From positions 1 to 40,131 of IMG/VR virus record IMGVR_UViG_3300045391_003787: 40,131 nt of DNA, one strand, 5' to 3'. Numbering within the stretch: position 1 is the first letter of the stretch; each line of letters starts with the position of its first letter. This stretch comes from a virus. Shown here in pieces: positions 6,503-37,032 of the stretch. The position numbers and the translations under genes were made by a program. The notes under the pieces are model-generated. The model made no database searches. It was given only the letters and a program-made list of their open reading frames with translations, and was not told the DNA's origin.

Positions 6503-6504
6503 CT

Positions 6505-7269
6505 ATGAAAAACCTCTTGGTATTTATAAATCCTCTAAAGACGTTCGAGGGAGCCGACTACTACAAAGAAATACATATCCTAGCGAAGCTGCAGATTGAT
6601 AATAGCCTAGCTTTTGGCTGGAAGCGTGAGGATATTATGATGGTGACTAACTTTCCTTACGAATATAATGGGGTACAAGCTATCGTGGTTCCTGACGAAA
6701 CTTTTGATGCAACCAAGAACACTGTTAGCAAGATCAATGGGATCTTAGCTTTGTTTGATATGGGGCTTATAACTGACGAACTATTTTGGTTCCATGACTT
6801 TGACGCTTTCCAGAACGCTCCTCTAGGAGAAGTAACACTAGGCGACAAGGTACTGGCTCTAACTAACACTACAGTTGATGATAGCCGTCTAAGCACCGGT
6901 GTTCTGTTTTTCTCACAAAGTGCTAGAGATTTATTTACCCAGTTGCAACAAAAGTGTCAGGAGAACTTAGTGAACGAAGAAGTTGGACTGAGACTTTTAC
7001 TCGCTGACCAACCACAACTGCAAGATCAGTTACTACTTTTAAACATCAGCCATAACTTTGCGATCAGAAAACGTCCGGTGGCCGACCAATATCAACAAGC
7101 CGAGAAACCAATAAAAGTTCTCCATTTCCATCCTACTGATAAACGTCTCTGTGATAGTGAACCCACCAAGAACAGTCTTGAGGTGGTATACGGACATAAT
7201 AGTCTAGGCGAATCTCTTTTGGGGGGTGAGTTAGAAGCAAGTTTTTGCAAATATGGTCTGACGGTATGA
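6505..7269 (+). CDS. Putative DxD nucleotide-sugar transferase, paralog family A, copy 1
   Basis: I place the start at ATG 6505 (MKNLL), 3 nt after the upstream stop. The ORF track opens at GTG 6496. Motifs are FWFHDFDAFQN (DxD) and KPIKVLHFHP. It is clearly paralogous to 7266..7997. Confidence 0.55.
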   Translation: MKNLLVFINPLKTFEGADYYKEIHILAKLQIDNSLAFGWKREDIMMVTNFPYEYNGVQAIVVPDETFDATKNTVSKINGILALFDMGLITDELFWFHDFDAFQNAPLGEVTLGDKVLALTNTTVDDSRLSTGVLFFSQSARDLFTQLQQKCQENLVNEEVGLRLLLADQPQLQDQLLLLNISHNFAIRKRPVADQYQQAEKPIKVLHFHPTDKRLCDSEPTKNSLEVVYGHNSLGESLLGGELEASFCKYGLTV

Positions 7270-7997
7270 AGAACCTTTTGTCCTTTACTAATCCTTCTGG
7301 AGAGTTTACCGACGAGGACAAAACACTCGTTAAGATTCATATTGATAACAGCTTAGATTTGGGTTGGAAAAAAGACGACATCTTACTGTTCACCAACTTC
7401 CCTTACGAGTACAACGGAGTTAAAGCTCTACCAGTTCCGGCCTTTGATATAAAGTGGGACAGAACTTCTAATAAAATTCCAGTCATCGAGTATCTACTCC
7501 TTGAGGGAATGTTCCCTGATCTTTACTGGTATCACGATTTTGATGCTTACCAGAATGAACCTTTCGATGAGGCAGAGTTAAGCGGCTTTGATCTTGGTCT
7601 GACCACTTATGGTTATAAGGATCAGATCAATGGTGGTTCATTCTTTTTTCGGGAGAACACTCATGACTTCTTTGATTATCTACTTAATCGTTTGATTCCT
7701 ACTTATCGCACTAGGGCCGATGAAAAGACTATGACTGATATGTGGCGTGAGGGTACTTTAAATAACTGGAACCACAAGATTTTAAACATCACCTATAATT
7801 TCGGTCAGCGTGGACCCAGTCGATGCTACAAACAAGCTGACAAGCCTCTAAAGGTTTTGCATTTCCACCCTTACTATCAGTTCTATCCCCATGACGACAC
7901 CAACATTAACGTCTTCATGCACGGACATAATCAGTGGGGTATTCCCATGATGTCGCAAAGATTAATTGACGTATTTAAGCATCATGGAGTCCAATGA
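7266..7997 (+). CDS. Putative DxD nucleotide-sugar transferase, paralog family A, copy 2
   Basis: MKNLL start at 7266 forms an ATGA overlap with the upstream stop (the track ORF opens at 7245). Motifs shared with copy 1: IDNSL.(F/L)GWK, TNFPYEYNGV, YWYHDFDAYQN, KPLKVLHFHP. Confidence 0.55.
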   Translation: MKNLLSFTNPSGEFTDEDKTLVKIHIDNSLDLGWKKDDILLFTNFPYEYNGVKALPVPAFDIKWDRTSNKIPVIEYLLLEGMFPDLYWYHDFDAYQNEPFDEAELSGFDLGLTTYGYKDQINGGSFFFRENTHDFFDYLLNRLIPTYRTRADEKTMTDMWREGTLNNWNHKILNITYNFGQRGPSRCYKQADKPLKVLHFHPYYQFYPHDDTNINVFMHGHNQWGIPMMSQRLIDVFKHHGVQ

Positions 7998-8664
7998 TCT
8001 AACACTCATAATGCTGACGGCCAACCGAGTACCGGCTGGCTGGGCTGAATTTCATAAAGAAAAACTCCTAGAAGCGGCCCAAGGTAAGCCAATTATTACT
8101 ATTTCCCGTGAGCCTTTAAATTGGGGTATAAACGTCCTTGATACCGAACGGCAGTCTATATCAAATATCTACTTCCAGCTTCTCAGAGGGGCAAAACTAG
8201 CCTCTACACGCTATATAGGAGTGGTTGAGGACGATTGCCTCTATCCAGCCGAGCATTTTGAGTTTAAACCGGCGGATGATGCCTTTTATTACAATGAGAA
8301 TCGCTTCAATGTCTTCACTTGGGGGCGGTCCATGTTTTGCTACAAGAAACGGGTGAGCAATTCTACCTTAATCGCTAATCGAGAATTAGTAATTAAAGCC
8401 TTAGAGGAAAGATTTGCTAAGTGGCCAGACGGAACGCCGACTGGAAACACGGGAGAATTAGGACGAGATAACATCGCTGATAAGTTAGGACTGCCTCATT
8501 ACCCGATGAGACTGTTTGAAACTTACTTTTCTGTAGTTCGAGTTGATCACCAATTAGGGGTAGATAGATTGTCCCGAACTCGTCGCAAAGGACCAGGAAT
8601 GTTAAAATCTTATGAGATCCCTATGTGGGGACGAGCTAAGGATATAGTTAATAAATTCAAATGA
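7984..8664 (+). CDS. Putative glycosyltransferase-like protein, paralog family B, copy 1
   Basis: Probable start at MESNDL (7984); the track ORF opens at 7966. It shares the pattern PII(T/S)(I/V)...P...G.N and acidic-x-D-x-LYP..(H/Y)F (VVEDDCLYPAEHF) with 8661..9332 and 9951..10622. Confidence 0.45.
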   Translation: MESNDLTLIMLTANRVPAGWAEFHKEKLLEAAQGKPIITISREPLNWGINVLDTERQSISNIYFQLLRGAKLASTRYIGVVEDDCLYPAEHFEFKPADDAFYYNENRFNVFTWGRSMFCYKKRVSNSTLIANRELVIKALEERFAKWPDGTPTGNTGELGRDNIADKLGLPHYPMRLFETYFSVVRVDHQLGVDRLSRTRRKGPGMLKSYEIPMWGRAKDIVNKFK

Positions 8665-9332
8665 CCGCCACAATTGTTTATTGCTCTAGTAATAGGGAAG
8701 ACGAAGCCTTCGAGCGAAGGATAAGAGAGTACTTGTTAAAAAACTGTGGGGGGCTACCAATTATTAGTGTCACCCAAAAGCCTACGGATCTTGGAACTAA
8801 TATTTGTGTAGGTGATGATATCGGGGTGTCAGGTTTTAATTTCTTTCGCCAGTGGCAGATTGGTTTAGAGGTCGCCAAAACGGATCTTGTGATTTCTGCC
8901 GAAGCCGATTGTCTTTACCCACCAGATTATTTCCAGTACCGCCCGCCTCGTTTAGACAAGTGCTATCGAAACTCCAACCTCTATGTGATGCCTGATTTGC
9001 GGAGTTTCTTTTTCAAGAAGTCAGAAGGAGCCACACACGCTCAAGTTATCGGACGAGAATTCTTTCTAAATAGATTAAACGAACTTTTCGTAGGAGCTCC
9101 CGAATGGTCGGCTGAGGAAAAGAACTTTCCTAAAGAGAGATGGAAGCAAGAAGATATTTTTTCTGAAGCCGAGATAGAGATGTATGAATCAGAGAACCCC
9201 GTCTTTCAGGTCAAAACCCATAAAGGGATGCGCTATTACACTCATTCAGATCGAACCCCTATCCCCGAGATAAAATATTGGGGCAATGGTACACCACTTC
9301 GTAATTATTTAATTAAAGGAATAGAAATATGA
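8661..9332 (+). CDS. Putative glycosyltransferase-like protein, paralog family B, copy 2
   Basis: ATGA overlap with the upstream gene. Motifs GLPIISVTQKPTDLGTNI and SAEADCLYPPDYF match copies 1 and 3. Confidence 0.45.
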   Translation: MTATIVYCSSNREDEAFERRIREYLLKNCGGLPIISVTQKPTDLGTNICVGDDIGVSGFNFFRQWQIGLEVAKTDLVISAEADCLYPPDYFQYRPPRLDKCYRNSNLYVMPDLRSFFFKKSEGATHAQVIGREFFLNRLNELFVGAPEWSAEEKNFPKERWKQEDIFSEAEIEMYESENPVFQVKTHKGMRYYTHSDRTPIPEIKYWGNGTPLRNYLIKGIEI

Positions 9333-9949
9333 CATTTAAAGAAGGACTAACACACTACGGCTTGCCTTACGAAATACCCGACTGTTCTCGGAATGGGCTG
9401 CCCCAATTCTTGGTAGACTCTGGTTATAAGGTCGGGGCCGAGGTTGGAGTTTATAAAGCCGAGTACTCCGAACGCTTCGCTAAAGTCGGTTTAAAACATT
9501 ATGCCATTGATCCTTGGATGGCTTTCCCGGGACAAGGACGGACCCAAAAGGTTCAGGAGAGACAAGAATTTTTATACGGTCATGCGCAGCGAGTCTTGGC
9601 TCCTTATCCCAACTGCACCATGATTCGTAAAACTTCGATGGATGCTTTAGCTGATTTTGCAGATAACAGTCTTGATTATGTGTACTTGGACGGCGATCAT
9701 TCCTTTCGCTTTGCAGCCGAGGATATAGTGGAATGGTCTAAGAAAGTCCGCCCGGGTGGAATCGTTGCCGGACATGATTATTGGAACACCGGACCCGATA
9801 AGTGGAACGTAGTTTGTCAGGTTAAAGCTGTTTTGGACGCATACATTAAGGTCTTTGAGATTAAGAGCTTTTACATCTATGGCAAGATGCACCCATTAGA
9901 CGAGCAGAAGAAAGACGATAAATTCCACAGTTGGTTATACATCAAATAA
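9329..9949 (+). CDS. Class I SAM-dependent methyltransferase (Methyltransf_24 / TylF-like O-methyltransferase)
   Basis: Motif I-like VGAEVGVYKAEYS and the characteristic YVYLDGDHSFRFAAEDIVEWSKKVRPGGIVAGHDY block. It is embedded in the glycosyltransferase cluster. Confidence 0.7.
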   Translation: MTFKEGLTHYGLPYEIPDCSRNGLPQFLVDSGYKVGAEVGVYKAEYSERFAKVGLKHYAIDPWMAFPGQGRTQKVQERQEFLYGHAQRVLAPYPNCTMIRKTSMDALADFADNSLDYVYLDGDHSFRFAAEDIVEWSKKVRPGGIVAGHDYWNTGPDKWNVVCQVKAVLDAYIKVFEIKSFYIYGKMHPLDEQKKDDKFHSWLYIK

Positions 9950-9950
9950 T

Positions 9951-10622
9951 ATGGATGGAATCCTGTATTACTCCGACAATACTTTTGAGGGGCCAATCTT
10001 CCAAGAGGTTCAAGACATCTTGAGTGGTACAGGATTACCGATCGTTAGCGTGACACTAAAGCCCCTGAAGTTTGGACAGAATATCGTGATGGATTTGCCT
10101 CGTTGTTATCCGACGATGGTTAAACAAATTATTGCTGGTTTGGAAAGTTTGCGAGTGCAGAATGTATTTTTTACTGAGCATGATGTTTTGTACAGCCCGT
10201 CTCATTTCTCGTTTGTTCCTCCTCGTCACGATATCTTTTATTACGATACTAATGTTTGGCGGTGGGATTATCCCAAAGAGAGGTACTTCACCTATGACCG
10301 CCTGCTTTGCTTGTCGATGATGTGTTGTGATAGAAAATTAGCTCTGGAGCATTACAAGAAGCGGTTGGAGATAATTCAAGATAATGGCTGGGATTTTCCT
10401 ACCAAAGGAGAACCAGCTTGGCAACGACGAATGGGCTATGAACCTGGTACTAAAAAGAAAAAGCGAGGGGGATTTACAGATGACGACTTTGAGACTTGGG
10501 CAGCCCCGCACCCTAGTATAGATGTTCGACACAAAGGGACTTTTTCTCCACCTAAAGTTAATTTACAAGATTTTAAATGGGAACCTACCGGCTGGCAGGA
10601 AACCACTATTAAACCTATATGA
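9951..10622 (+). CDS. Putative glycosyltransferase-like protein, paralog family B, copy 3
   Basis: Motifs GLPIVSVTLKPLKFGQNIV and FFTEHDVLYSPSHF align with copies 1 and 2. Confidence 0.45.
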   Translation: MDGILYYSDNTFEGPIFQEVQDILSGTGLPIVSVTLKPLKFGQNIVMDLPRCYPTMVKQIIAGLESLRVQNVFFTEHDVLYSPSHFSFVPPRHDIFYYDTNVWRWDYPKERYFTYDRLLCLSMMCCDRKLALEHYKKRLEIIQDNGWDFPTKGEPAWQRRMGYEPGTKKKKRGGFTDDDFETWAAPHPSIDVRHKGTFSPPKVNLQDFKWEPTGWQETTIKPI

Positions 10623-11605
10623 GAGATATATCAATCGTTATTCCGGCCAGGAACGAGGAGTTCTTAGCCAGAACTATTCAAGACATCTTAGAACACATTG
10701 AAGCCGATACCGAGATCATCGCTGTGTTAGATGGTCAATGGGCAGCCCCACCTATTGTTCAGCATGAACGAGTTAATGTTATCTATGTTCCAGAAGCTGT
10801 CGGACAAAGGGCCGCTGGGAATATTGGAGCTCGATTGGCGCAAGGAAAGTATATCTGGAAGTCTGACGCTCATTGTTCTTTTGATCAAGGGTTTGACCGT
10901 AAGATGTTAGAGTTCTTTAAAGAGGTGGGTGACGACGTAACAGCCGTGCCGATAATGAAGAACCTCCATGTCTTTGATTGGAAATGTTATTCCTGCGGTC
11001 ATAAAGAATATCAAGACAAGTATCCTCAAGCGGAAGACAATGCTTGTAAAAGTTGTGGGGCAAAGAACGTCAAAAAGAAGATGATTTGGCAACCCAAAAA
11101 AGGTACTCATGCTAGAGCTTACTGCTTTGATGCCTCTCCTAAATTTGGCTACTTCGAGCCATGGGAACACACTCCTGAGTACAAGAAAGACTTAGCAGAG
11201 AAAGGGTATACCGAATCCATGAGTTTACAGGGTAGTTGCTTTGTCTTAACTAAAGAAAAGTACTTCTCTCTACCAATTTGTGATGAAACGCTAGGTAATT
11301 GGGGAAACCAGGGAATCGAAGTTGCCTGTAAAACCTGGCTGTCTGGTGGACGTGTCTTAGTAAACCATAAGACCTGGTACGCTCATTGTTTTAGAACTAA
11401 ATCTGAGTTTGGTTTTCCCTGGCCGGTGTCCGGACGGGATCAAGAGAAAACCAAGAAGAACGTCAGGGATCTTTTGTGGGAAGGAAAGTTCGATAAAGCT
11501 GTCCGTCCAGTGAGTTGGTTGGTAGAAAAGTTCTGGCCAGTGCCAGGTTGGACCGAAGCAGACCTAAAACAGCTCAAAGAACACGAAGCAAATCTTCGTA
11601 AATAG
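10619..11605 (+). CDS. GT-A fold glycosyltransferase with DxH motif (GT2/GT27-like, polypeptide GalNAc-transferase-like) carrying an inserted Cys4 zinc ribbon
   Basis: SIVIPARNEE...EIIAVLDG; KSDAHCSF (DAH at 10865..10873); GNWGNQGIEVACKTWLSGGRVLVNHKTWYAHCFR, resembling WGGENxExSFRxWxCGG...GHxFR; inserted CYSC..(18 aa)..CKSC at 10985..11056. Confidence 0.7.
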   Translation: MRDISIVIPARNEEFLARTIQDILEHIEADTEIIAVLDGQWAAPPIVQHERVNVIYVPEAVGQRAAGNIGARLAQGKYIWKSDAHCSFDQGFDRKMLEFFKEVGDDVTAVPIMKNLHVFDWKCYSCGHKEYQDKYPQAEDNACKSCGAKNVKKKMIWQPKKGTHARAYCFDASPKFGYFEPWEHTPEYKKDLAEKGYTESMSLQGSCFVLTKEKYFSLPICDETLGNWGNQGIEVACKTWLSGGRVLVNHKTWYAHCFRTKSEFGFPWPVSGRDQEKTKKNVRDLLWEGKFDKAVRPVSWLVEKFWPVPGWTEADLKQLKEHEANLRK

Positions 11606-11664: not shown

Positions 11665-14538
11665 ATGGCTAGAATACACCAATCAGGAGCTGAACATAAC
11701 TCAGTTGTTGATGGAATTGACGACATAATTAGTGCTGGTGCAACCATTGTCACGACCCCTGTCTTGGGTAGTCGTTATGCTTGGAAATTAACTAGTGCGT
11801 CAGGAGCTTCATCAGTAGCATCTTACGCTCGTTTCGGTCACGCCAATTCAACCGGAGCAGCGGTTTATTATAAATGGGATTTTCAAGTAGATACTACTGG
11901 AGCGTTCTGGTTGTGTCAGTTTGCTTTTGGAACAACAAAGCGTGGTGGAATTAGATTTACAGGGGGAAAGTTACAATTAGCAACAGATATTACAACGGGC
12001 GTTGGGGCAACTTCGGTATCTGTTACCACTGGAGTTTGGCACACCTGTCAGGCTAAGTATGATGCGGCAACGGGAAATGCAGAATTTTATTTAGATGGGG
12101 TTCTGGTTGATACCGGACAAAACGTAACCACCGCCGGAAATAATGTAGACAATCTTTATATTGGTCAGTTTCAGCCAGTCAATAGCAATATGTACGTTGA
12201 TAATATTATTGTCAACGATACTACTGGTGCTAATGAGACTGGGTATCCGGCAAGGGGTGAGAGATTTGTAATTCTCTACCCCAATGCCGTAATGACCGAA
12301 GCGGCTACCGTGGGTGGTGCGCCTGGAGATGTTTATTTTAGAACCTCGGCAGGTGGTGCAGGGTCCGGTACAACATCTAACTGGAATCAAGTTGAGGAAA
12401 CCGATCCTGATGGTGATACTTCTTACGTTAGGAAAAACGCTAGTGAATCTAACCGTGATTGGTATCCGGTAGAAGATATTGCCACAGTTGGGTTTCCAGC
12501 AACGACAGATGAGGTGAATGTTGTAGCGGTTGGTGGTTATGTTGGAGGGAACGGAACCACCGATAGGTTCTTTAGGTATTTATACGAAACAGCAGCCGGA
12601 GCAACCGGGCTTCAGCGGTCCGCCAGCGTCAACGCCAACGTCAACGCTTATTTCCTATATAAAATTGGCGGTGTTGCTGGTGCTGACCAACAGTTACTTT
12701 CTTATCCTTCGGGTTCCGTTGGATCAGACCTAGATACCTATCAAATTGGTTGGGAAGCTAACGACGCTAACGCCCGTCAAATAAAGGGCTCAGCTTTTTG
12801 GCTGGAAGTTTCTTATATCGCTTCGGGTGTTTCTACTTCCCCTTCAGTCTCACCATCAATCTCTAAATCACCGTCCGTCTCTCCGTCCGTATCCGTCTCC
12901 CCCTCGGTTTCGGTCAGCCCTAGTATTTCTAAATCCCCTTCGGTTTCGCCGTCGGTATCACCATCGGTATCAGTCTCTCCAAGTATCTCCGTCTCTCCAA
13001 GTGTTTCAAAATCACCGTCAATTTCACCTTCCGTAAGTCCGAGTGTCTCCGTGTCCCCCAGCGTAAGTGTTAGTCCCTCGGTTTCTAAATCCCCTTCCAT
13101 CAGTCCGAGCGTTAGCCCCTCGGTATCAGTCTCCCCCTCAGTATCAGTTAGCCCAAGCTCTAGTTTATCTCCCAGCGAATCTCCTTCCGTTTCGCCCTCG
13201 GTTTCCACCTCCCCGTCCGTTAGTGTCTCACCTAGTGGTTCTCTATCACCTAGTATCTCACCAAGCGTTAGTCCCTCAGCTTCGACAAGTCCTTCGATTA
13301 GCGTCTCGCCGTCGTCGTCTTTATCTCCCTCGATCAGTCCTTCCATCTCACCTAGTTCGTCAGAAAGTCCCTCCATCAGTCCAAGTTCTTCGATCAGCCC
13401 GTCGGTGTCCCCATCGGTATCGGTGTCTCCATCAATCAGTGTTTCACCCTCGGTTTCTGTATCTCCCAGTTCTTCTCTATCACCCTCCCTTTCTCCGAGC
13501 GTTAGCCCCTCCGTCAGTGTTTCTCCTTCTGTTTCAACCTCTCCTTCGGTTTCTACTTCCCCATCTGTTTCTGTTTCACCTTCAAGTTCAATATCGCCTA
13601 GCGTATCGCCATCTAGTAGTGCGTCTCCATCTGTTAGCCCTTCGGTTAGTACCTCGCCTAGCGTTTCCACAAGTCCTTCGATTAGTGTTAGCCCTAGCAG
13701 TTCTGAGTCACCCAGTGTCTCACCGTCTTCATCTTTATCACCGTCTGTCTCTCCGAGTGTTTCTACCAGCCCTTCAATCTCTGTATCCCCAAGTTCGTCA
13801 GAGTCTCCTTCCGTTTCGCCTTCCAGTAGTGTCTCTCCTTCCGTAAGTCCAAGCGTAAGTACTTCACCTTCCGTCTCAGTTTCTCCTAGTGTTTCAACCT
13901 CGCCTAGTAGTTCATTAAGCCCCAGCATTAGCCCCTCTGTAAGTCCCAGCTCTAGTGAATCACCATCAGTCAGTCCCTCCTCATCAACTTCGCCCAGTGT
14001 CAGCCCCAGTGTCTCCACTTCCCCATCAGTTAGTACTTCCCCATCAGTAAGTGTCTCACCGTCGTCTTCTATTAGTCCCAGTGTCAGCCCGTCGGTTTCC
14101 ACTTCACCCTCACTTAGCCCTAGTGTCAGCACTAGTCCCTCAGTCTCGGTGTCGCCGAGTAGTTCACTTAGTCCATCTACGTCGCCATCGGTCTCAGTAA
14201 GTCCATCAACATCGCCGAGCGTTTCCGTTTCACCCAGCGTCAGCGAATCCCCCTCCATCAGTCCATCTATTAGTGCTAGTCCCAGTACCTCCCCCTCGGT
14301 ATCAGTATCACCTTCGGAATCCCCAAGTCTCAGTCCCTCAGTCTCTCCGAGTATCTCTTTTAGTCCTTCAATATCCCCATCGCCCTCTGCTCCAGCCTTT
14401 ACAGCTACTTTATATGAATGGAACGGCACTATTTGGATAAAGAAAGTTATGAAGTATTACAATGGGTCAGTTTGGATTAATAAGCCCCTTTACTATTGGG
14501 ACGGGTCAGCGTGGGTTGCTGTAGATAATTTAGGCTAA
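11665..14538 (+). CDS. Large virion surface or fibre protein: N-terminal LamG/concanavalin-like domain, (Ser-X)n tract of about 520 aa, and short aromatic C-terminal repeats
   Basis: 957-aa ORF. The N-terminal roughly 385 aa has a LamG-like pattern (WHTCQAKYD..GNAEFYLDGVLV...NLYIGQF...MYVDNIIVND). Residues about 389-908 have Ser at every second position. The C-terminus has three Y-x-(W/Y)-(N/D)-G-(S/T)-x-W units. Confidence 0.8.
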   Translation: MARIHQSGAEHNSVVDGIDDIISAGATIVTTPVLGSRYAWKLTSASGASSVASYARFGHANSTGAAVYYKWDFQVDTTGAFWLCQFAFGTTKRGGIRFTGGKLQLATDITTGVGATSVSVTTGVWHTCQAKYDAATGNAEFYLDGVLVDTGQNVTTAGNNVDNLYIGQFQPVNSNMYVDNIIVNDTTGANETGYPARGERFVILYPNAVMTEAATVGGAPGDVYFRTSAGGAGSGTTSNWNQVEETDPDGDTSYVRKNASESNRDWYPVEDIATVGFPATTDEVNVVAVGGYVGGNGTTDRFFRYLYETAAGATGLQRSASVNANVNAYFLYKIGGVAGADQQLLSYPSGSVGSDLDTYQIGWEANDANARQIKGSAFWLEVSYIASGVSTSPSVSPSISKSPSVSPSVSVSPSVSVSPSISKSPSVSPSVSPSVSVSPSISVSPSVSKSPSISPSVSPSVSVSPSVSVSPSVSKSPSISPSVSPSVSVSPSVSVSPSSSLSPSESPSVSPSVSTSPSVSVSPSGSLSPSISPSVSPSASTSPSISVSPSSSLSPSISPSISPSSSESPSISPSSSISPSVSPSVSVSPSISVSPSVSVSPSSSLSPSLSPSVSPSVSVSPSVSTSPSVSTSPSVSVSPSSSISPSVSPSSSASPSVSPSVSTSPSVSTSPSISVSPSSSESPSVSPSSSLSPSVSPSVSTSPSISVSPSSSESPSVSPSSSVSPSVSPSVSTSPSVSVSPSVSTSPSSSLSPSISPSVSPSSSESPSVSPSSSTSPSVSPSVSTSPSVSTSPSVSVSPSSSISPSVSPSVSTSPSLSPSVSTSPSVSVSPSSSLSPSTSPSVSVSPSTSPSVSVSPSVSESPSISPSISASPSTSPSVSVSPSESPSLSPSVSPSISFSPSISPSPSAPAFTATLYEWNGTIWIKKVMKYYNGSVWINKPLYYWDGSAWVAVDNLG
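12831..14388 (+). repeat. Coding tract for strictly alternating Ser-X repeats (SPSVSPSVSVSPS...)
   Basis: Read directly from the translation. The DNA copies are degenerate, with all six Ser codons and all four Pro codons used within the first 100 nt. Confidence 0.95.
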
Positions 14539-24159: not shown

Positions 24160-24160
24160 A

Positions 24161-25416: not shown

Positions 25417-25418
25417 TC

Positions 25419-25427: not shown

Positions 25428-25433
25428 CTAGGT

Positions 25434-31672: not shown

Positions 31673-32095
31673 ATGGCACTACCACAAGGAAATAACCCTA
31701 CATTAGATGGAATCTGGTTCCGTCCGGCGGTGCTGACGGCTGATGACGCAACGCCAACAGTTGTTGGCCAGAACACAATCCCGATGGGTTGTCGCTCAGT
31801 CAACGTCACGGCAGTTCAAAACGATGCGAATGATTGGATTACTTTGCCAGCTCTTTCGTCTGTTCCAACGGGTCATCGTATAGTCATTTGTTGTAATGCG
31901 GCCTCTAACTTCGAGTTAAGAACCCCCGCCACTTCCAACGAAAAGATTAACAACGTGGACTCCGATGGCACGAATGAATATCTGTGTACTGATACCGATG
32001 TCGTTATTGTTACCAAAATGAGTGATACCGCAGGCTGGATGGCTTACGAGTACACCAAATTAGGCGCCGTCGTTTCGGCTGTTATTCCTGATTAA
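31673..32095 (+). CDS. Putative capsid decoration or head-surface protein, paralog 1 (no repeat tail)
   Basis: 140 aa, colinear with the first 140 aa of the next gene (MAL..G.NP.LDG..., LP.LS.VP.GH.I, LRTPA.SN.KIN.VD.DG.N, GW.A.E.T.LGAVV.AV.P). Confidence 0.55.
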   Translation: MALPQGNNPTLDGIWFRPAVLTADDATPTVVGQNTIPMGCRSVNVTAVQNDANDWITLPALSSVPTGHRIVICCNAASNFELRTPATSNEKINNVDSDGTNEYLCTDTDVVIVTKMSDTAGWMAYEYTKLGAVVSAVIPD

Positions 32096-32106: not shown

Positions 32107-32844
32107 ATGGCACTCTCAAGTGGAACTAACCCGGTATTAGACGGAGTGAGGGTGACTGCAAATGGAATCACAGCTACTAACGTCGAATCCGGTCTAAACC
32201 AAATCTATCCTCAAGTACAATCGGTTAATATTAGTGGAATCACTAACGCTGAGTCAGACTTTGTTGTCCTGCCTTTGCTTAGTGACGTACCGGTAGGTCA
32301 TCACATCATCATCAACAATCAATCTGGCTATAACATTTATTTGCGAACGCCAGCTTCAAGTAATAACAAGATTAATGATGTCGACTGTGACGGTGCTAAC
32401 CAGTACCCCCTAACTAAAACGAATGTCTTAGAGTTAATCAAAAGAGATGGTACGGGTGGTTGGGTTGCTTTAGAGCACACCAACTTGGGTGCGGTGGTAA
32501 CAGCGGTGGTTCCGGCGGCTCATTCCTTGAGTCCGTCGGCTTCACCGTCGGCTTCACCATCTGTCTCACCTTCCGTGTCAGCGTCGCCTTCTAGGAGTCC
32601 AAGTATCTCACCATCAGTGTCACCGTCAGCGTCTTTGTCGCCAAGCGTGTCACCATCAGTCTCGGTCTCTCCGTCGGTTTCGCTATCACCAAGTAAATCG
32701 CCGTCCGTCTCACCAAGTGCGTCAACTTCACCAAGTTCTTCGGCTTCTCCGTCCGTGTCACCGTCGGTGTCAAAATCACCTTCTCTGTCACCTTCAATTT
32801 CGCCGTCGATCTCGCCAAGTTTCTCGCCCTCACAAAATCCGTAA
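32107..32844 (+). CDS. Putative capsid decoration or head-surface protein, paralog 2, with a 105-aa C-terminal (Ser-X)n tail
   Basis: The first 140 aa are paralogous to 31673..32095. The C-terminus reads SLSPSASPSASPSVSPSVSASPS...SPSFSPSQNP. Confidence 0.6.
   Translation: MALSSGTNPVLDGVRVTANGITATNVESGLNQIYPQVQSVNISGITNAESDFVVLPLLSDVPVGHHIIINNQSGYNIYLRTPASSNNKINDVDCDGANQYPLTKTNVLELIKRDGTGGWVALEHTNLGAVVTAVVPAAHSLSPSASPSASPSVSPSVSASPSRSPSISPSVSPSASLSPSVSPSVSVSPSVSLSPSKSPSVSPSASTSPSSSASPSVSPSVSKSPSLSPSISPSISPSFSPSQNP
32527..32841 (+). repeat. Coding tract for alternating Ser-X repeats
   Basis: Read from the translation of 32107..32844. Confidence 0.9.
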
Positions 32845-32921: not shown

Positions 32922-33635
32922 ATGCAGTTTAATTCTAATGCGGACAGCCAAGATATAGTCCACGAAGTCTTGAAAATTTGTGATACCAGCACGAACAGCT
33001 ATCCGGTGGTTGATATCACTCGTCGCTGTAACACCGCCTTGGATCGTTTCTGGTTTTTAGCCATGACCTCTAATGGGTTGTGGCAGGTTGATGATCTAAA
33101 TAACTCCACCACTCTGCCGATTGGCACGACTAACGTGGTTTCTGGGCAGTATGATTACTCCCTGGCCTCCGATGTACTATTGATTGAGAAGGTTTTATGC
33201 AAAGATGCTAATGGAAATTGGCAAGAACTCGAGCCAGTCGACGTAACTGACTCCAAAAACGAGTCTCGAAACATCTGGACTCGTCCTTCTAGCAACTCTG
33301 GCTCGCCAACTAAGTACGATTTGGTGGCTAATTCCTTGTTACTTGATCCAGTCCCTAACTATAACTCGACCAATGGCTTAAAAGTGGTCTTCCAACGAGG
33401 CCCAAGTTACTTCGATACTGATGACAATACTAAAACTCCAGGCATTCCGGTTATTTTCCATACTTATATCGCTCGCTATGCTGCTCTGCAGTTTTTGATA
33501 GAAAAAAGACTCCCGGCTGTGCAAGGAATCGCTCAATTAGTAGCGGAAGATGAAGCCGCTATCAAAGATTGGTACGCTTTTAGAAATAAAGCTACTCGTA
33601 CTCGCTTAACAGTGCGGCAAGAAAGTAATAGGTAA
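32922..33635 (+). CDS. Virion structural protein of unknown role (237 aa)
   Basis: ORF between the head and tail genes. An adaptor or connector role is only a positional guess. Confidence 0.6.
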   Translation: MQFNSNADSQDIVHEVLKICDTSTNSYPVVDITRRCNTALDRFWFLAMTSNGLWQVDDLNNSTTLPIGTTNVVSGQYDYSLASDVLLIEKVLCKDANGNWQELEPVDVTDSKNESRNIWTRPSSNSGSPTKYDLVANSLLLDPVPNYNSTNGLKVVFQRGPSYFDTDDNTKTPGIPVIFHTYIARYAALQFLIEKRLPAVQGIAQLVAEDEAAIKDWYAFRNKATRTRLTVRQESNR

Positions 33636-33636: not shown

Positions 33637-36600
33637 ATGCGAATGGCCAAGAAGAACATTGGCCCATTCCTCGCTTTCAACAGGGTTTGGTTCGTAATCA
33701 ACCAAAAGCGATTACTCTGGTTACTTAACTCCAAGTTAACCCGGCGATGGTTCCGCCGGGTACTTTGCATTGATGAAACTTTAGACATTGAGGAGATCTT
33801 CCCCAATTCTTATAAGGTTCATTTGATTGGAAACGTCTATAAGCAAGATTTCAGAACTCACGCAAAATATGGGAAGCGTATTTATCTTGCCTTTAAACCT
33901 TTATGGTGGGTAATTCACTACTGGGATGAACTTTTTGCTGATAGATATGCTCCTGAATGGAGTTATGGATTTACTACTTTAACAGTATTTCCTGACCCCA
34001 ACGCAGAGACTACCTCTGTCGATGGTTCTACGACAAGAAGTACTGCCGAGGCATGGGCTACCAAACGAGCAGCGGCCGCATCTAACACCGCCCAAGATAG
34101 TGCTACTACTGCTTACTTTGCACGCCTCACTTCCAATGGAACCCCTCAGTGGACAAACATGGATAGGGGATTCTTTTTGTTTGATACTTCTGCATTAGGT
34201 GCAACAGCCATTGTCGCTAGTGCAACATTTTCTATTTCCGGCGATAGTGGTGGTACTACCTTAGATCAATATAGTCAGGATTATTGTTTAGTTAGTTCTT
34301 CTCCGGCATCTAATACAGTTATTTCTACTGGGGATTACGACCAAGTGGGATCAACAGATTTTATAACCCGCGTTTCTTGTGGGTCTTGGAATGATACGGC
34401 GTATAATGATCACGCTTTAAATTCAAGTGGTATCGCAGCGATTTCGTTGACGGGTGTAACTAAGTTTGGAACTCGTCTTTCTGGAGATTTAGATAATGTA
34501 GAACCTAGTATTGGCGCTGGTGGGTTGAACTCTCGTGTAAGGTGTATTTTTGCAGACAACGCAGGAACAGCTAGTGATCCTAAGTTGGTAATTACTTATA
34601 CGTTGTCGTCTACCTCTCCTTCCGTCTCACCGTCTGTTAGCGTAAGTCCGTCTGTTTCCGTATCCCCATCCGTTTCAGTTTCTCCTAGCTCGTCTCTATC
34701 GCCCTCGGTTTCTCCGAGTGTGTCACCCAGTGTCTCAGTCTCCCCCTCGATAAGTGTGTCACCCAGTGTCAGTACCAGTCCATCAATTTCCGTTTCACCT
34801 AGCAGTTCTTTATCGCCGTCTGTTTCCCCTAGTAGCTCGGCTAGCCCGTCGGTGTCGCCTTCCGTTAGTGTATCGCCTAGCGTATCAAAGTCACCATCCA
34901 TATCACCCTCCATTTCCCCATCAGTGTCAGTAAGTCCATCAATTTCCGTTAGCCCCTCGGTATCAGTTTCACCTAGTATCTCTGTTTCACCTTCAGTTTC
35001 CGTTTCACCATCTAGTAGTCTATCTCCCTCCATCAGCCCGTCTGTTTCCCCAAGTGCAAGTGTATCTCCATCTGTCTCGGTATCCCCGTCAAGTTCTTTA
35101 TCACCATCTATCTCACCATCGGTATCACCCAGCGTTTCAGTATCACCTTCTGCTTCTGTTAGTCCTAGTAGCTCTTTAAGTCCCTCAATCAGTCCAAGTA
35201 TCTCACCATCAGTAAGTGTTAGCCCGTCTGTTTCCGTTTCACCATCTTCATCACTCTCACCATCTGTAAGCCCCTCGGTATCCCCTTCCGTCAGTGTTTC
35301 ACCGAGTGTCAGTGTTTCACCTTCTTCCTCTCTATCGCCATCCATCAGTCCGTCTGTCTCTCCTTCGGTATCTACTAGCCCATCAATTTCCGTTAGCCCC
35401 TCATCTTCTTTATCTCCATCAATATCACCTAGCGTTAGTCCGAGCGTTTCTGTGTCTCCGAGTGTTAGTGTTAGTCCATCCTCGAGTTTATCGCCAAGTG
35501 TTTCACCATCGGTCTCTCCCTCAGTATCAACTTCTCCAAGTGTTAGCGTCTCACCGTCGTCTTCACTTTCTCCATCAATAAGTCCGTCGGTGTCACCGTC
35601 GGTATCGGTCAGTCCATCAGTCTCAGTTAGCCCCTCTTCAAGTTTATCACCGAGCATATCGCCCTCCATCAGTCCATCCGTTTCGGTATCTCCATCGACC
35701 TCGGTGAGTCCATCTGTAAGTGTATCTCCATCGGTTTCTACTTCTCCATCAGTCTCAGTCTCCCCCAGCGTTTCCGTATCACCATCCTCTTCATTATCTC
35801 CCTCGATCTCACCGTCGGTTTCCCCGAGTGCTAGTACATCACCTAGTGCTTCTGTTTCTCCTTCTGAAAGTGTCTCTCCCAGCTCCTCGCTTAGTCCGAG
35901 TATTTCGCCCTCTGTATCACCCTCGGTTAGTACCTCACCTTCTGTTTCAGTCTCACCTTCTGTTAGTGTATCGCCAAGTTCTAGTTTGTCCCCTAGCATT
36001 TCTCCTAGTGTAAGCCCTTCTGTTTCTACAAGCCCAAGCGTCTCCGTCAGCCCTTCGGTAAGCACTTCCCCCTCCTCATCATTATCACCGTCCATAAGTC
36101 CATCAGTATCGCCCTCAGTTTCAATCAGCCCATCGGTATCACCCTCTGTCTCCGCTAGTCCGTCAGTAAGTCCTTCATCGTCACTCTCACCTTCCATTTC
36201 GCCATCAGTAAGCCCCAGTGTTAGTGTTTCACCTAGTGCTTCAGTATCTCCCAGCGTCTCAACTTCGCCTTCCGTTAGTACCTCACCATCCGTGTCGACT
36301 AGTCCTTCCGTTTCACCTTCCGTTAGTGTTTCTCCGTCAGTTTCACCGTCAGTCAGTAAATCTCCCAGTATTAGTCCATCAGTGTCTCCTTCGGTGTCGG
36401 TATCACCTAGTGTTTCCGTCTCTCCCTCTGTTAGCGTCAGTCCATCCGTTAGTCCGTCGGCCTCTCGGAGTCCCTCAGCTTCGCCTTCTTTCTCACCATC
36501 CAAGAGTCCAAGTATCTCCCCGTCCTTCTCGCCCTCTAGGAGTCCGTCGGTCTCCGTTTCTCCATCCGTCTCTACTAGTCCGACACCCTCATCTTCGGTT

Positions 36601-37032
36601 TCGCCTAGCATCAGTGTCTCCCCATCTATTTCGGTATCACCTAGTTCCTCTCCTTCACCCTCTCCAGGTGGGCATAATTGGACAAATCAAGACCAAAACC
36701 ACAGTTCGTGGACCAATCAAGATAAGAATTCAAGTAGTTGGACTAATCAGGATAAAGTAACAAGTACCTGGGAGAATCAGAGTAAAGTAACCAGTAACTG
36801 GGAGAATCAAGATAAGAATTCGAGTGCCTGGAGTAACCAAGTAAAGGTTGTTAGTACTTGGGAGAATCAGGATAAAATGGCAAGTTCGTGGACTAATCAG
36901 GATAAAAACTCGTCTAATTGGTCAAATCAGAGTAAAATTACTAGTAGTTGGTCTAATCAAAGCAAGAATCCAAGTACCTGGGAGAATCAAGATAAGGACC
37001 CTAGCACTTGGGATAACCAGGATAAAAGTTAA
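33637..37032 (+). CDS. Very large virion surface or fibre protein: N-terminal globular domain of about 320 aa, (Ser-X)n tract of about 690 aa, then about 12 Trp-containing decapeptide repeats
   Basis: 1131-aa ORF. The repeat organisation was read directly from the translation. Confidence 0.8.
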   Translation: MRMAKKNIGPFLAFNRVWFVINQKRLLWLLNSKLTRRWFRRVLCIDETLDIEEIFPNSYKVHLIGNVYKQDFRTHAKYGKRIYLAFKPLWWVIHYWDELFADRYAPEWSYGFTTLTVFPDPNAETTSVDGSTTRSTAEAWATKRAAAASNTAQDSATTAYFARLTSNGTPQWTNMDRGFFLFDTSALGATAIVASATFSISGDSGGTTLDQYSQDYCLVSSSPASNTVISTGDYDQVGSTDFITRVSCGSWNDTAYNDHALNSSGIAAISLTGVTKFGTRLSGDLDNVEPSIGAGGLNSRVRCIFADNAGTASDPKLVITYTLSSTSPSVSPSVSVSPSVSVSPSVSVSPSSSLSPSVSPSVSPSVSVSPSISVSPSVSTSPSISVSPSSSLSPSVSPSSSASPSVSPSVSVSPSVSKSPSISPSISPSVSVSPSISVSPSVSVSPSISVSPSVSVSPSSSLSPSISPSVSPSASVSPSVSVSPSSSLSPSISPSVSPSVSVSPSASVSPSSSLSPSISPSISPSVSVSPSVSVSPSSSLSPSVSPSVSPSVSVSPSVSVSPSSSLSPSISPSVSPSVSTSPSISVSPSSSLSPSISPSVSPSVSVSPSVSVSPSSSLSPSVSPSVSPSVSTSPSVSVSPSSSLSPSISPSVSPSVSVSPSVSVSPSSSLSPSISPSISPSVSVSPSTSVSPSVSVSPSVSTSPSVSVSPSVSVSPSSSLSPSISPSVSPSASTSPSASVSPSESVSPSSSLSPSISPSVSPSVSTSPSVSVSPSVSVSPSSSLSPSISPSVSPSVSTSPSVSVSPSVSTSPSSSLSPSISPSVSPSVSISPSVSPSVSASPSVSPSSSLSPSISPSVSPSVSVSPSASVSPSVSTSPSVSTSPSVSTSPSVSPSVSVSPSVSPSVSKSPSISPSVSPSVSVSPSVSVSPSVSVSPSVSPSASRSPSASPSFSPSKSPSISPSFSPSRSPSVSVSPSVSTSPTPSSSVSPSISVSPSISVSPSSSPSPSPGGHNWTNQDQNHSSWTNQDKNSSSWTNQDKVTSTWENQSKVTSNWENQDKNSSAWSNQVKVVSTWENQDKMASSWTNQDKNSSNWSNQSKITSSWSNQSKNPSTWENQDKDPSTWDNQDKS
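34606..36666 (+). repeat. Coding tract for alternating Ser-X repeats with a 26-residue super-repeat (SPSSSLSPS[IV]SPS[VI]SPSVS[VT]SPS[VIA]SV)
   Basis: The central part shows at least eight consecutive 26-aa units, each beginning SPSSSL. There is a single Thr-for-Ser exception near the end. Confidence 0.95.
36679..37029 (+). repeat. About 11.7 tandem 30-bp (10-aa) repeats, W-[TESD]-N-Q-[DSV]-K-x-x-S-x
   Basis: WTNQDQNHSS WTNQDKNSSS WTNQDKVTST WENQSKVTSN WENQDKNSSA WSNQVKVVST WENQDKMASS WTNQDKNSSN WSNQSKITSS WSNQSKNPST WENQDKDPST WDNQDKS. Confidence 0.95.

What the first reader, a model, noticed from the sequence alone, without database searches (positions are those of the whole stretch)
33637..37032. 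1131-aa protein with a (Ser-X)n tract of about 690 residues organised in a 26-residue super-repeat
After a globular N-terminal domain of about 320 aa (motifs GFFLFDTSALG and ATFSISGDSGG), the protein becomes Ser-X alternation for about 2 kb of DNA.

In the central part, at least eight consecutive units of exactly 26 residues can be read: SPSSSLSPS(I/V)SPS(V/I)SPSVS(V/T)SPS(V/I/A)SV. Each is punctuated by SSSL. This higher-order periodicity of 78 bp argues for amplification by unequal recombination followed by divergence. It also suggests a regular structural or modification register.

Together with the other two proteins, the genome encodes roughly 1,300 residues of this repeat, which is about 10% of its coding capacity.
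Basis: seen in the sequence. Interest (0 to 1): 0.78.

Follow-up and report, generated by a model that had tools for sequence, protein, structure and literature searches.

The report
Serine-repeat stalk protein of a phage
A complete 40-kb phage genome, probably from a phage of the tiny Patescibacteria, encodes a 1131-residue protein whose middle 686 residues alternate serine with another amino acid. The same genome carries a block of sugar-transferase genes that travels with such tracts in dozens of other phages, so the tract is most likely a sugar-coated stalk on the virus particle.

Summary
ORF 33637-37032 encodes 1131 aa. Residues 324-1009 are a Ser-X tract in which 342 of 343 alternate positions are Ser. 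Eight consecutive 26-residue units occupy aa 457-664 (lag-26 autocorrelation z = 8; 0 of 2000 block shuffles reach it).

The repeat exists only at the protein level. The units are 93% identical in amino acids but 58% in DNA, codon choice is random, and the longest exact DNA repeat is 23 nt. This argues against recent unequal recombination and against assembly collapse.

The protein has four parts: a conserved helical N-terminus, a CBM-like beta-sandwich, the tract, and twelve W-x-N-Q-x-K decapeptides.

The genome also carries an eight-gene cluster (5693-11605): two GT2 enzymes, three GT-A-fold paralogs, a methyltransferase and two unknowns. In IMG/VR, 55 of 71 loci holding that GT-A family also hold an SP-containing Ser-X tract, against 1 of 78 control loci (p = 5e-25). 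The same cluster occurs in Patescibacteria genomes.

Best reading: a phage analogue of bacterial serine-rich-repeat glycoproteins, in which an O-glycosylated extended stalk carries a carbohydrate-binding head. Glycosylation is inferred, not shown. I found nothing like it in the literature searched.

The parts
33637..37032 (+). Gene C: 1131-aa protein made of an N-terminal conserved domain, a Ser-X tract and C-terminal Trp decapeptide repeats.
   Evidence: The start overlaps the stop of the adaptor gene, and homologues begin with the same MxKNIGPFLAF sequence.
33637..33990 (+). N-terminal sub-domain of helices plus a hairpin (aa 1-118). It is the most conserved part of the family (RTHxKYxKR; F19, Q23, W90, H94 and D97 are invariant). 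It may attach the protein to the virion.
   Evidence: Alignment A1 of 87 homologues. AF2 model with pLDDT 90.5. No structural match covers this part.
34009..34605 (+). Beta-sandwich of the carbohydrate-binding-module type (aa 125-323), ending in the conserved DPKLVITYT.
   Evidence: Foldseek against PDB matches the chondroitin-sulfate CBM 8wab (E = 7e-5, TM 0.66 on the target) and the alginate CBM 7vbo. Foldseek against BFVD matches CBM96-domain proteins and phage tail, tail-fibre and minor-tail proteins.
34606..36663 (+). Ser-X tract of 686 residues built from SPSx and SPSxSx blocks. It is the proposed O-glycosylated stalk.
   Evidence: Composition and block structure. Periodicity. Codon scrambling.
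35005..35628 (+). Eight consecutive 26-residue units, SPSSSL-SPS(I/V)-SPS(V/I)-SPS(V/A)S(V/T)-SPS(V/I/A)SV.
   Evidence: The units are 93% identical in amino acids and 58% in nucleotides. Codon pairs between units: 160 identical, 517 synonymous-different, 51 nonsynonymous.
36679..37029 (+). Twelve decapeptide repeats W-(T/E/S)-N-Q-x-K-x-x-S-x (aa 1015-1131). This is a C-terminal module shared with other family members and with the protein in the same genomic slot of a related phage.
   Evidence: TRF periods 30, 60 and 90. Repeat list. The same module is present in P0003, P0013, P0061 and P0106 and in L206:7790-9154, which has a different N-domain.
5693..11605 (+). Eight-gene glycosylation cluster:
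- GT2 enzymes at 5693-6502 and 10619-11605.
- u6496-family paralogs at 6496-7269 and 7245-7997 (invariant H-D-x-D motif; fold unknown).
- GT-A-fold u8661-family paralogs at 7966-8664, 8661-9332 and 9951-10622.
- Methyltransf_24 at 9329-9949.
   Evidence: Pfam. Alignment A2 shows an invariant E-x-D-x-L-Y motif. AF2 of u8661 gives pLDDT 94. Foldseek against PDB gives 101 hits at E <= 1e-3; the 50 listed are glycosyltransferases (SpsA, TarP, TarS, RmlT, GlyE) and sugar-nucleotide transferases such as KdsB. Co-occurrence with Ser-X tracts.
11665..14538 (+). Protein A (957 aa), directly downstream of the cluster. It has an N-terminal domain with a weak LamG-like signal, a Ser-X tract at aa 390-909 (nt 12832-14391), and a C-terminus with three aromatic (Y/W)xGxxW motifs.
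32107..32844 (+). Protein B (245 aa). Its N-domain is a paralogue of the 140-aa protein encoded just after the major capsid gene. Its Ser-X tail covers aa 140-243 (nt 32524-32835).
   Evidence: BLASTP of the two N-domains gives 46% identity, E = 2e-36. The orthologue in L206 also carries a Ser-X tail.
32922..33635 (+). SU10-type head-to-tail adaptor gene immediately upstream of gene C. It places gene C inside the virion structural module.
   Evidence: Pfam PF24175, E = 3.7e-7. phrog_399 structural protein.

Best explanation
**What it is.** Gene C encodes a virion-associated serine-rich-repeat protein of a podovirus-like phage whose host is probably a member of the Patescibacteria (Microgenomatia-type CPR bacteria).

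**Layout.** A conserved helical N-terminus and a carbohydrate-binding-module-like beta-sandwich are joined to twelve Trp-containing decapeptides by a 686-residue (Ser-X)n tract.

**Proposed mechanism (inferred).**
- In the infected cell's cytoplasm, the phage's own eight-gene cluster O-glycosylates the serines of the three Ser-X proteins. The cluster holds two GT2 enzymes, three GT-A-fold paralogs, two further DxD-motif proteins and a methyltransferase.
- This turns the tracts into extended, hydrophilic, protease-resistant bottle-brush stalks. If extended, gene C's stalk would be on the order of 170-230 nm.
- The stalks hold lectin-like heads or sticky aromatic tips away from the particle, for first reversible contact with glycan-rich surfaces.
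- The strict local sequence register (Pro every 4 or 6 residues, a fixed order of V/I/L, an SSSL marker every 26 residues) is maintained by selection on the peptide. Most likely it defines how the transferases decorate each serine.
- The host lineage has the same gene cluster next to its own Ser-X proteins, so the phage filaments probably resemble host surface glycoproteins.

**Shown:** the anatomy, periodicity, codon scrambling, folds, co-occurrence and taxonomic distribution.

**Inferred:** glycosylation itself, location on the virion, which end is attached, and the function in adsorption.
For: 1. The tract and its 26-residue register are real and non-random.
2. Selection acts on the peptide and not the DNA. 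The units show 93% amino-acid identity with random codon choice and a 10:1 ratio of synonymous to nonsynonymous codon differences. In 98 independent tracts the same-codon excess averages +0.013. L101 has eight perfect 26-aa units at 62% nucleotide identity.
3. Gene C lies in the structural module, between the SU10-type adaptor and downstream structural-size genes.
4. Its beta-sandwich resembles CBMs and phage tail and fibre proteins.
5. The window encodes two Pfam GT2 enzymes and a methyltransferase. It also encodes three paralogs whose confident AF2 model is a GT-A fold with an invariant ExD motif.
6. The cluster abuts Ser-X protein A here. In L043 it abuts the gene C homologue.
7. Co-occurrence is strong. 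55 of 71 non-redundant IMG/VR loci found through the GT-A family carry an SP-containing Ser-X tract (27 of 31 when at least 18 kb is held). This compares with 1 of 78 control phage loci lacking that family and 2 of 2 controls that have it (Fisher p = 5e-25).
8. The GT2b gene is fused to a u8661-family domain in L043 and L077.
9. The whole cluster occurs in Patescibacteria genomes. One case is a complete Woesebacteria chromosome, where it is interleaved with nucleotide-sugar genes. Another is a 744-kb Microgenomatus contig, where a Ser-X protein of at least 1188 aa follows it.
10. There are precedents for dedicated transferases glycosylating Ser-X stalks. These are the SRRPs (PMC6973325) and the staphylococcal SD-repeat proteins, where glycosylation protects against proteolysis (PMC3794999).
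11. There is a precedent for phage-encoded virion glycosylation: Che8 and Rita, as reported in PMC11256854 citing Freeman et al. 2023.
Against: - No direct evidence of glycans or of virion incorporation exists. Everything rests on gene neighbourhood and folds.
- The transferases could act on lipid-linked or cell-wall glycans instead. In the Woesebacteria chromosome the cluster looks like an ordinary surface-polysaccharide locus, with no Ser-X gene within 10 kb. Only 13 of 40 genome loci show a tract within 10 kb.
- A related phage contig (L201) has the full cluster but no Ser-X tract in the 18 kb that could be read.
- Several Ser-rich loci (L013, L034, L067) show no transferase in the DNA held.
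- The orientation of the protein on the particle is unknown.
- Host assignment rests on one gene cluster.
Confidence: 0.55

Rival explanations
1. The tract is an unmodified flexible or polyproline-II-like linker, an entropic spacer. The glycosyltransferase cluster would act on something else, such as host envelope glycans (receptor masking, superinfection exclusion) or a lipid-linked polysaccharide.
For: - Pro every 4-6 residues and half the residues being Ser are typical of disordered linkers.
- In the Woesebacteria chromosome the cluster sits among nucleotide-sugar and polysaccharide genes, with no Ser-X gene within 10 kb.
- L201 has the cluster but no tract in the part seen.
Against: - A plain linker does not explain why the identity and order of V, I and L are held nearly or completely constant while synonymous sites are saturated.
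- It does not explain the p = 5e-25 linkage of the GT-A family with Ser-X tracts in phage contigs.
- It does not explain the placement of the cluster directly beside tract genes.
Confidence: 0.2
2. The tract folds into a regular beta-solenoid or triple beta-helix fibre shaft. One 26-residue unit would be one coil, with V/I/L packed inside and serine ladders outside. Glycosylation could be present or absent.
For: - Strict polar/hydrophobic alternation, exact conservation of the X residues and a fixed super-period all fit.
- A period of 26 is the most frequent super-period among 98 tracts, occurring 11 times.
- Other members of the N-domain family carry beta-strand-like tandem repeats at the same position.
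Against: - Pro interrupts every 4 or 6 residues.
- Super-periods among homologous tracts range from 8 to 60 residues, and within gene C the unit changes from 26 to 32 and 34. There is therefore no conserved coil length.
- Tracts also occur as free C-terminal tails, as in protein B.
- No structure prediction of the tract was possible.
Confidence: 0.15
3. The tract is a recently expanded, recombination-prone contingency repeat whose copy number varies between virions.
For: - A higher-order repeat must ultimately have arisen by duplication.
- 12-mer repeats are slightly more frequent than in random back-translations (109 against 82 +/- 15).
- Three of 98 tracts elsewhere (for example in L147 and L113) do show an excess of shared codons.
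Against: - TRF finds no DNA-level 78-bp repeat.
- Synonymous sites and Ser codon classes are randomised.
- The longest exact repeat is 23 nt, which is too short for efficient homologous recombination.
- No near-identical genome was available to test polymorphism.
Confidence: 0.05
4. The tract is an assembly artefact or non-coding low-complexity DNA, or the real gene is the long antisense ORF 34596-36611.
For: Low-complexity translation, and a 671-aa ORF on the opposite strand.
Against: - The DNA is not repetitive: the longest exact repeat is 23 nt. Collapse or expansion is therefore unlikely.
- The same architecture is found in more than 50 independent contigs from many samples.
- The antisense frame is open in 100% of 500 random synonymous back-translations, so it is a forced by-product.
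Confidence: 0.02

Closest known systems
Serine-rich repeat glycoproteins (SRRPs) of Gram-positive bacteria (GspB, Fap1, PsrP, SraP, L. reuteri SRRP)
   Same: - Hundreds of residues of Ser-X alternation with small or hydrophobic X.
- A globular ligand-binding region N-terminal to the long repeat, and a distinct C-terminal end module.
- A multi-gene glycosyltransferase cluster beside the substrate gene.
- Glycosylation in the cytoplasm before the protein reaches its final place (PMC6973325).
- One structural neighbour of the phage GT-A paralog is GlyE (5gvw). I recall GlyE as one of the PsrP-modifying enzymes, but I did not check that here.
   Different: - No GtfA/GtfB priming pair, and no accessory Sec system: no ORF of SecA size exists in the genome.
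- No LPXTG anchor.
- Pro recurs every 4-6 residues, giving SPSx/SPSxSx blocks.
- The enzymes are GT-A fold, not the GtfA/GtfB pair.
- The carrier is a phage, and the lineage is Patescibacteria rather than Firmicutes.
Staphylococcal Ser-Asp dipeptide-repeat proteins (ClfA, SdrC-E) modified by SdgA/SdgB
   Same: A long dipeptide (Ser-X)n stalk sits between a binding domain and an anchor. Dedicated transferases add sugars stepwise to the repeat serines. Glycosylation protects the stalk from proteases (PMC3794999).
   Different: X is Asp there, whereas here it is Pro, Val, Ile or Leu. There are two enzymes there and up to seven here, plus a methyltransferase. Those are cell-wall proteins, not phage proteins.
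Virion glycosylation in mycobacteriophages (Che8, Rita; Freeman et al. 2023, as cited in PMC11256854)
   Same: Phage-encoded glycosyltransferases modify the phage's own structural proteins.
   Different: As reported there, the targets are major capsid proteins of actinobacteriophages, not dedicated Ser-X tracts hundreds of residues long. The gene families and the host phylum differ. The original paper was not available to me.
Hydroxyproline-rich and Ser-Pro-repeat glycoproteins of plants and green algae (extensins, arabinogalactan proteins) and mucins (from my own knowledge, not tested)
   Same: Ser/Pro-rich periodic peptides whose dense O-glycosylation stiffens them into extended rods. Their tandem units set the glycan pattern.
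   Different: Those are eukaryotic secretory-pathway systems that depend on prolyl hydroxylation or GalNAc transferases. There is no homology, only functional analogy.
Phage fibres and decoration proteins with CBM96-type or LamG-type heads
   Same: The beta-sandwich of gene C matches CBM96-domain and tail-fibre proteins. Proteins with Ser-X tracts in the large protein collection carry LamG (PF13385) or CBM96 (PF24517) domains.
   Different: Ordinary fibres use folded coiled-coil or beta-helical shafts. Within the gene C family, most members have no extension or have short beta-like tandem repeats. Only 2 of the best 120 have a Ser-X tract.

Membership tests
Serine-rich repeat glycoproteins (SRRP / accessory-Sec substrates) | Long repeat region with serine at alternate positions. 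| tested here: met
   342 of 343 alternate positions over 686 residues are Ser.
Serine-rich repeat glycoproteins (SRRP / accessory-Sec substrates) | Priming glycosyltransferase pair GtfA/GtfB (with DUF1975) encoded with the substrate. | tested here: not met
   Pfam scan of the eight cluster ORFs finds only Glycos_transf_2 and Methyltransf_24. The remaining ORFs are GT-A fold or of unknown fold. Not every ORF of the window was scanned.
Serine-rich repeat glycoproteins (SRRP / accessory-Sec substrates) | Export by SecA2/SecY2 with Asp proteins, and an aSec-type long signal peptide. | tested here: not met
   The only ORFs of 600 aa or more are A, C and the portal, so no SecA-sized gene exists. 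This is a 40-kb phage genome.
Serine-rich repeat glycoproteins (SRRP / accessory-Sec substrates) | C-terminal LPXTG cell-wall anchor. | tested here: not met
   No LPx(T/S/A)G motif in A, B or C. Gene C ends in Trp decapeptide repeats.
Serine-rich repeat glycoproteins (SRRP / accessory-Sec substrates) | O-linked glycans on the repeat serines. | not testable with these tools
   Needs mass spectrometry or lectin blots.
Phage-encoded virion glycosylation systems | Glycosyltransferase genes carried by the phage genome. | tested here: met
   Two GT2 enzymes (E = 2.7e-13 and 3.1e-16) and three GT-A-fold paralogs lie within a circularly closed 40,062-bp phage genome.
Phage-encoded virion glycosylation systems | Structural proteins of the virion carry the glycans. 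| not testable with these tools
   Only gene position (between the adaptor and downstream structural genes) and co-occurrence are available.
GT-A fold glycosyltransferases (for the u8661 family) | Rossmann-like GT-A fold with an acidic DxD-type metal/nucleotide-sugar motif after a beta-strand. | tested here: met
   - AF2 gives pLDDT 94.
- Foldseek finds 101 PDB hits at E <= 1e-3, including SpsA, TarP, TarS, RmlT and GlyE, with TM about 0.5. Nucleotidyltransferases such as KdsB are also hit, so the superfamily is certain but the activity is not.
- E81-x-D83 is invariant.
- No Pfam or PDB hit by sequence.
CBM96-type carbohydrate-binding modules (for aa 125-323 of gene C) | Beta-sandwich fold and a match to the family profile. 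| tested here: inconclusive
   Fold matches to 8wab and 7vbo and to CBM96-annotated phage proteins, but no Pfam hit by sequence. Ligand binding was not tested.
Contingency / slippage-prone tandem DNA repeats | Head-to-tail DNA copies of high nucleotide identity. | tested here: not met
   TRF finds none in the tract. The units are 58% identical. The longest exact repeat is 23 nt, about the level of random back-translation.

The most novel reading that the evidence does not exclude
Patescibacteria and their phages may share a previously undescribed protein-glycosylation system. In it, a set of GT-A enzymes would read a strictly maintained SPSx/SPSxSx peptide code.

- The super-repeat (26 residues here; perfect 26-residue copies in L101) would act as a template, fixing a repeating pattern of different glycans along a filament more than 100 nm long.
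- Phages would carry their own copy of the enzymes. Their capsid, neck and fibre proteins would then be clothed in host-like glycoprotein filaments, serving for adhesion or camouflage on the surfaces of these episymbiotic cells.
- The randomised codons under perfect peptide repeats would mark long-term selection both for the exact peptide and against recombinogenic DNA.
Probability: 0.3. Interest if true: 0.9.

Novelty: new variant of a known kind. Interest (0 to 1): 0.75.

Why it matters
- **Phage biology.** If the inference holds, this is a phage counterpart of bacterial serine-rich-repeat glycoproteins. About 10% of a 40-kb genome would be spent on three substrates and a further 15% on the enzymes.
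- **Reach.** The module recurs in more than 50 uncultivated phage contigs and in Patescibacteria genomes, a lineage whose cell surfaces and viruses are almost unknown experimentally.
- **Host prediction.** It gives a sequence signature for predicting hosts of CPR phages: the GT-A family together with an SPSx tract.
- **Enzymology.** It offers a candidate new family of protein O-glycosyltransferases.
- **Molecular evolution.** It is a clean natural example of near-perfect peptide repeats encoded by fully scrambled codons. This bears on how repeats are stabilised against recombination and on switching between the two serine codon sets.
- **Testability.** All of this can be tested with recombinant co-expression, without culturing the host.

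Tried and rejected
- **Known phages.** No record in the GenBank phage collection (INPHARED) matches the N-domain. The terminase is at best 43.5% identical to those of Flavobacterium phages, which says nothing about the host.
- **Exact-sequence look-up** of the terminase found no source contig.
- **Pfam and PHROGs** gave nothing for the N-domain, the W-repeat (a spurious Spt5 CTD hit, below the curated cut-off) or the downstream genes.
- **PDB sequence searches** were uninformative for the u8661 family, the u6496 family, the adaptor and gene 37038-38504.
- **hhalign** shows no relation between the u6496 and u8661 families. Pfam at E <= 1 gave only a weak Nucleotid_trans hint, in 1 of 6 members.
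- **Length polymorphism** could not be tested. The closest N-domain is 52% identical and lacks a tract. A metagenome scan for close relatives found none. Among 41 relatives found through the capsid protein (55-75% identity), only one (L241) has the N-domain and only one (L206) has Ser-X tracts.
- **Active avoidance of DNA repeats.** The idea was that DNA repeats would be fewer than chance allows. This is not supported: repeats are at or slightly above the random back-translation level.
- **Antisense and shifted-frame ORFs** (12813-14429, 34596-36611, 13067-13846, 36218-36760) are rejected as composition artefacts.
- **RNA genes.** No tRNA and no Rfam family was found.
- **Literature.** Searches for SPSVSPS-type motifs, CPR phage glycosylation and serine-rich phage proteins found nothing describing this.
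- **Freeman et al. 2023** could not be read.

Full report
**1. The observation**

The window is a complete phage genome. A 69-nt exact repeat joins its two ends, giving 40,062 bp. It encodes a large terminase, portal, major capsid protein, SU10-type adaptor and an M23 peptidase.

ORF 33637-37032 is open and encodes 1131 aa. Residues 324-1009 form a Ser-X tract in which 342 of 343 alternate positions are Ser. The tract is a chain of SPSx and SPSxSx blocks. In the centre, the block lengths repeat as 6-4-4-6-6, so SPSSSL recurs exactly every 26 residues eight times (aa 457-664) before the unit lengthens to 32 and 34.

Shuffling the blocks gives lag-26 identity of 0.615 +/- 0.016, against 0.742 observed (z = 8; 0 of 2000 shuffles reach it). 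The periodicity claim therefore survives a formal test.

Proteins A (11665-14538) and B (32107-32844) carry 520 and 104 residues of the same kind of tract. Together the three tracts make up 9.8% of the genome.

**2. The repeat is in the protein, not the DNA**

- Tandem Repeats Finder sees no period-78 array.
- The eight units are 93% identical as peptides and 58% identical as DNA.
- Among identical residues, only 23.7% use the same codon. That is the random expectation from codon usage: sum of squared frequencies is 0.18 for Ser, 0.25 for Pro and 0.30 for Val.
- Codon pairs between units split into 160 identical, 517 synonymous and 51 nonsynonymous.
- Serine columns differ in codon class (TCN against AGY) in 43.9% of pairs, against 41.2% expected.
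- Third positions show no memory at lag 26.
- Random synonymous back-translations of the same protein give a longest exact repeat of 18.6 +/- 2.1 nt, against 23 observed. They give 82 +/- 15 repeated 12-mers, against 109 observed.

Any duplication was therefore ancient, and the peptide has been held by selection. No substrate for unequal recombination remains, and short-read assembly has nothing to collapse.

The 671-codon antisense ORF is open in every random back-translation, so it is an artefact.

The same behaviour is general. In 98 independent tracts from related loci, the same-codon excess averages +0.013, and only three exceed 0.15. L101 has eight perfect copies of a 26-residue unit at 62% DNA identity.

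Super-periods vary widely among tracts. A period of 26 is the most frequent (11 tracts), followed by 16, 18, 8, 38, 20 and 42.

**3. The rest of the protein**

The first 323 residues belong to a large uncharacterised family with 728 hits and a best identity of 52%. Most members are about 330 aa and stand alone. 33 of the best 120 have C-terminal extensions, almost all made of different tandem repeats, and only two of those are Ser-X.

An AF2 model (pLDDT 90.5) shows a helical N-terminal sub-domain with no structural match. It is followed by a beta-sandwich resembling carbohydrate-binding modules (8wab, 7vbo) and CBM96-type phage tail and fibre proteins.

The C-terminus is twelve exact decapeptides, W-x-N-Q-x-K-x-x-S-x. 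The same module ends several family members. In L206, a relative by capsid protein (70% identity), it ends the protein in the same slot after the adaptor. That protein has an unrelated N-domain but also a Ser-X tract. 'Tract plus W-repeat' therefore behaves as one module, and the head domain as an exchangeable part.

Which end binds the particle is unresolved.

**4. The glycosylation cluster**

Positions 5693-11605 hold eight co-directional genes: two Pfam GT2 enzymes, a Methyltransf_24, three paralogs (the u8661 family) and two paralogs (the u6496 family).

The u8661 family has an invariant E-x-D-x-L-Y motif. Its AF2 model (pLDDT 94) matches 101 PDB structures at E <= 1e-3. The listed matches are glycosyltransferases (SpsA, TarP, TarS, RmlT, GlyE) and sugar-nucleotide transferases such as KdsB. 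In L043 and L077 this domain is fused to the GT2b homologue. The u6496 family keeps an H-D-x-D motif but remains unassigned.

The cluster is immediately upstream of Ser-X protein A. In L043 it is immediately upstream of the gene C homologue, which there carries an SPSL/SPSI tract.

**5. Co-occurrence test**

*Forward.* Among 80 IMG/VR loci found with the gene C N-domain, cluster homologues appear in only two (L043, L077), and both have SPSx tracts.

*Reverse.* 80 loci were found through the u8661 family. 67 of them contain a Ser/Thr-X tract. With strict criteria (pure Ser alternation of at least 30 aa, containing Pro) and after removing duplicates:

| Set of loci | With tract | Total |
|---|---|---|
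| Found through the u8661 family | 55 | 71 |
| Same, with at least 18 kb of DNA held | 27 | 31 |
| N-domain controls lacking the family | 1 | 78 |

Fisher p = 5e-25. The tracts in those loci sit on many different globular domains and reach more than 1100 residues.

This is the main support for a functional link. It is association, not proof.

**6. Host**

Close homologues of u8661 (up to 68% identity) and the whole eight-gene set occur in contigs of Patescibacteria MAGs. These include Daviesbacteria, Woesebacteria, Microgenomatus, Levybacteria, Roizmanbacteria, Yanofskybacteria and Saccharibacteria.

In a complete Woesebacteria chromosome the genes are interleaved with RmlD, a CapD-like dehydratase, UDP-GlcNAc 2-epimerase and a carbamoyltransferase, next to dprA. 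That is a cellular context. In a 744-kb Microgenomatus contig the cluster is followed by a Ser-X protein of at least 1188 aa.

The system therefore appears native to the host lineage and copied into, or exchanged with, its phages. Host assignment is probable, not certain.

**7. Interpretation**

The closest working analogy is the serine-rich-repeat and Ser-Asp-repeat adhesins of Gram-positive bacteria. Each has a binding head, a very long Ser-X stalk and a terminal module. Dedicated transferases glycosylate the stalk in the cytoplasm, and in the SD-repeat proteins this protects it from proteases (PMC6973325, PMC3794999).

Membership of that family fails on every mechanistic marker: no GtfA/B, no accessory Sec, no LPXTG. 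This is an analogue, not a member.

Phage-encoded virion glycosylation has a precedent in mycobacteriophages (PMC11256854, citing Freeman et al. 2023), but not with dedicated tracts like these.

I therefore propose a glycosylated stalk. The main rivals are an unmodified linker and a folded beta-solenoid. The exact conservation of the X residues argues against a mere linker. The frequent prolines and the variable super-period argue against a fixed solenoid.

**8. Novelty**

Full-text searches found no description of SPSx-type tracts or of this cluster in phages or in CPR bacteria. I rate it a new variant of a known kind. It is of high interest because it is widespread, lies in a poorly known host-virus system, and is directly testable.

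Noticed in passing
window 1-69 and 40063-40131: An exact 69-nt direct repeat sits at the two ends of the window. The sequence is therefore a circularly closed assembly of 40,062 bp, that is, a complete genome.
   Followed up: yes
L101:14887-15600: Eight perfectly identical 26-residue units (SLSPSISPSVSPSVSLSPSLSPSLSP) are encoded with only 62% nucleotide identity and random codon choice, including TCN/AGY and TTR/CTN switches. This is an extreme case of peptide conservation over saturated synonymous sites.
   Followed up: partly
window 34596-36611 (-), 12813-14429 (-), 13067-13846 (+), 36218-36760 (+): Long ORFs in other frames lie across the Ser-X tracts. The antisense frame of gene C is open in 100% of random synonymous back-translations, so these are by-products of composition and not genes.
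   Followed up: yes
window 5222-5662 (+): A 146-aa protein with a collagen-like G-X-Y stretch (Pfam Collagen, E = 5.5e-7) lies just upstream of the glycosyltransferase cluster. In the related contig L201, the homologous collagen-like start belongs to a fibre-like protein of at least 978 aa, followed by a CBM96 protein.
   Followed up: partly
window 31673-32095 and 32107-32844: Two paralogous genes (46% identity) lie directly after the major capsid gene, and only the second carries a Ser-X tail. The same pair, again with the tail on the second copy, is present in L206. They may be head decoration proteins.
   Followed up: partly
L043:8416-9966 and L077:3199-4824: The GT2b homologue is fused to a C-terminal u8661-family (GT-A-fold) domain, a gene fusion linking the two enzyme families.
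   Followed up: partly
L171 (Candidatus Woesebacteria chromosome CP066693.1, 218854-239492): The same transferase families are interleaved with RmlD, a CapD-like dehydratase, UDP-GlcNAc 2-epimerase and a carbamoyltransferase. This hints at the sugars used (deoxy- and N-acetyl-hexoses, carbamoylated or methylated).
   Followed up: partly
window 14380-14538 (C-terminus of protein A); C-termini of the Ser-X ORFs L173:15160-18750 and L183:13374-18263: Ser-X proteins tend to end in short aromatic motifs. Examples are YEWNGTIW / YYNGSVW / YYWDGSAW in protein A, LELYDGSLWHRLPMKKV-type ends in MAG loci, and WxNQxK repeats in gene C. These may form a common anchoring or binding tip.
   Followed up: no
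window 20441-20992 (-): A 183-aa ORF begins MRKYQVIYADPPW. The DPPW motif is typical of N6-adenine DNA methyltransferases. This was read from the sequence and not checked with a tool.
   Followed up: no
window 15850-17590 and 23420-25700: Two stretches have no ORF of 130 aa or more. The first has locally raised G+C (0.507 at 16-17 kb). No tRNA or Rfam family was found there, and they were not examined further.
   Followed up: no
L013:9980-12658 and L067:9956-11734: In other phages the N-domain family is fused to different serine-rich fillers. One is about 250 residues of nearly pure poly-Ser, followed by a large extra domain. The other is an S/T-only tract. The slot therefore accepts several kinds of hydroxyl-rich spacer.
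   Followed up: no
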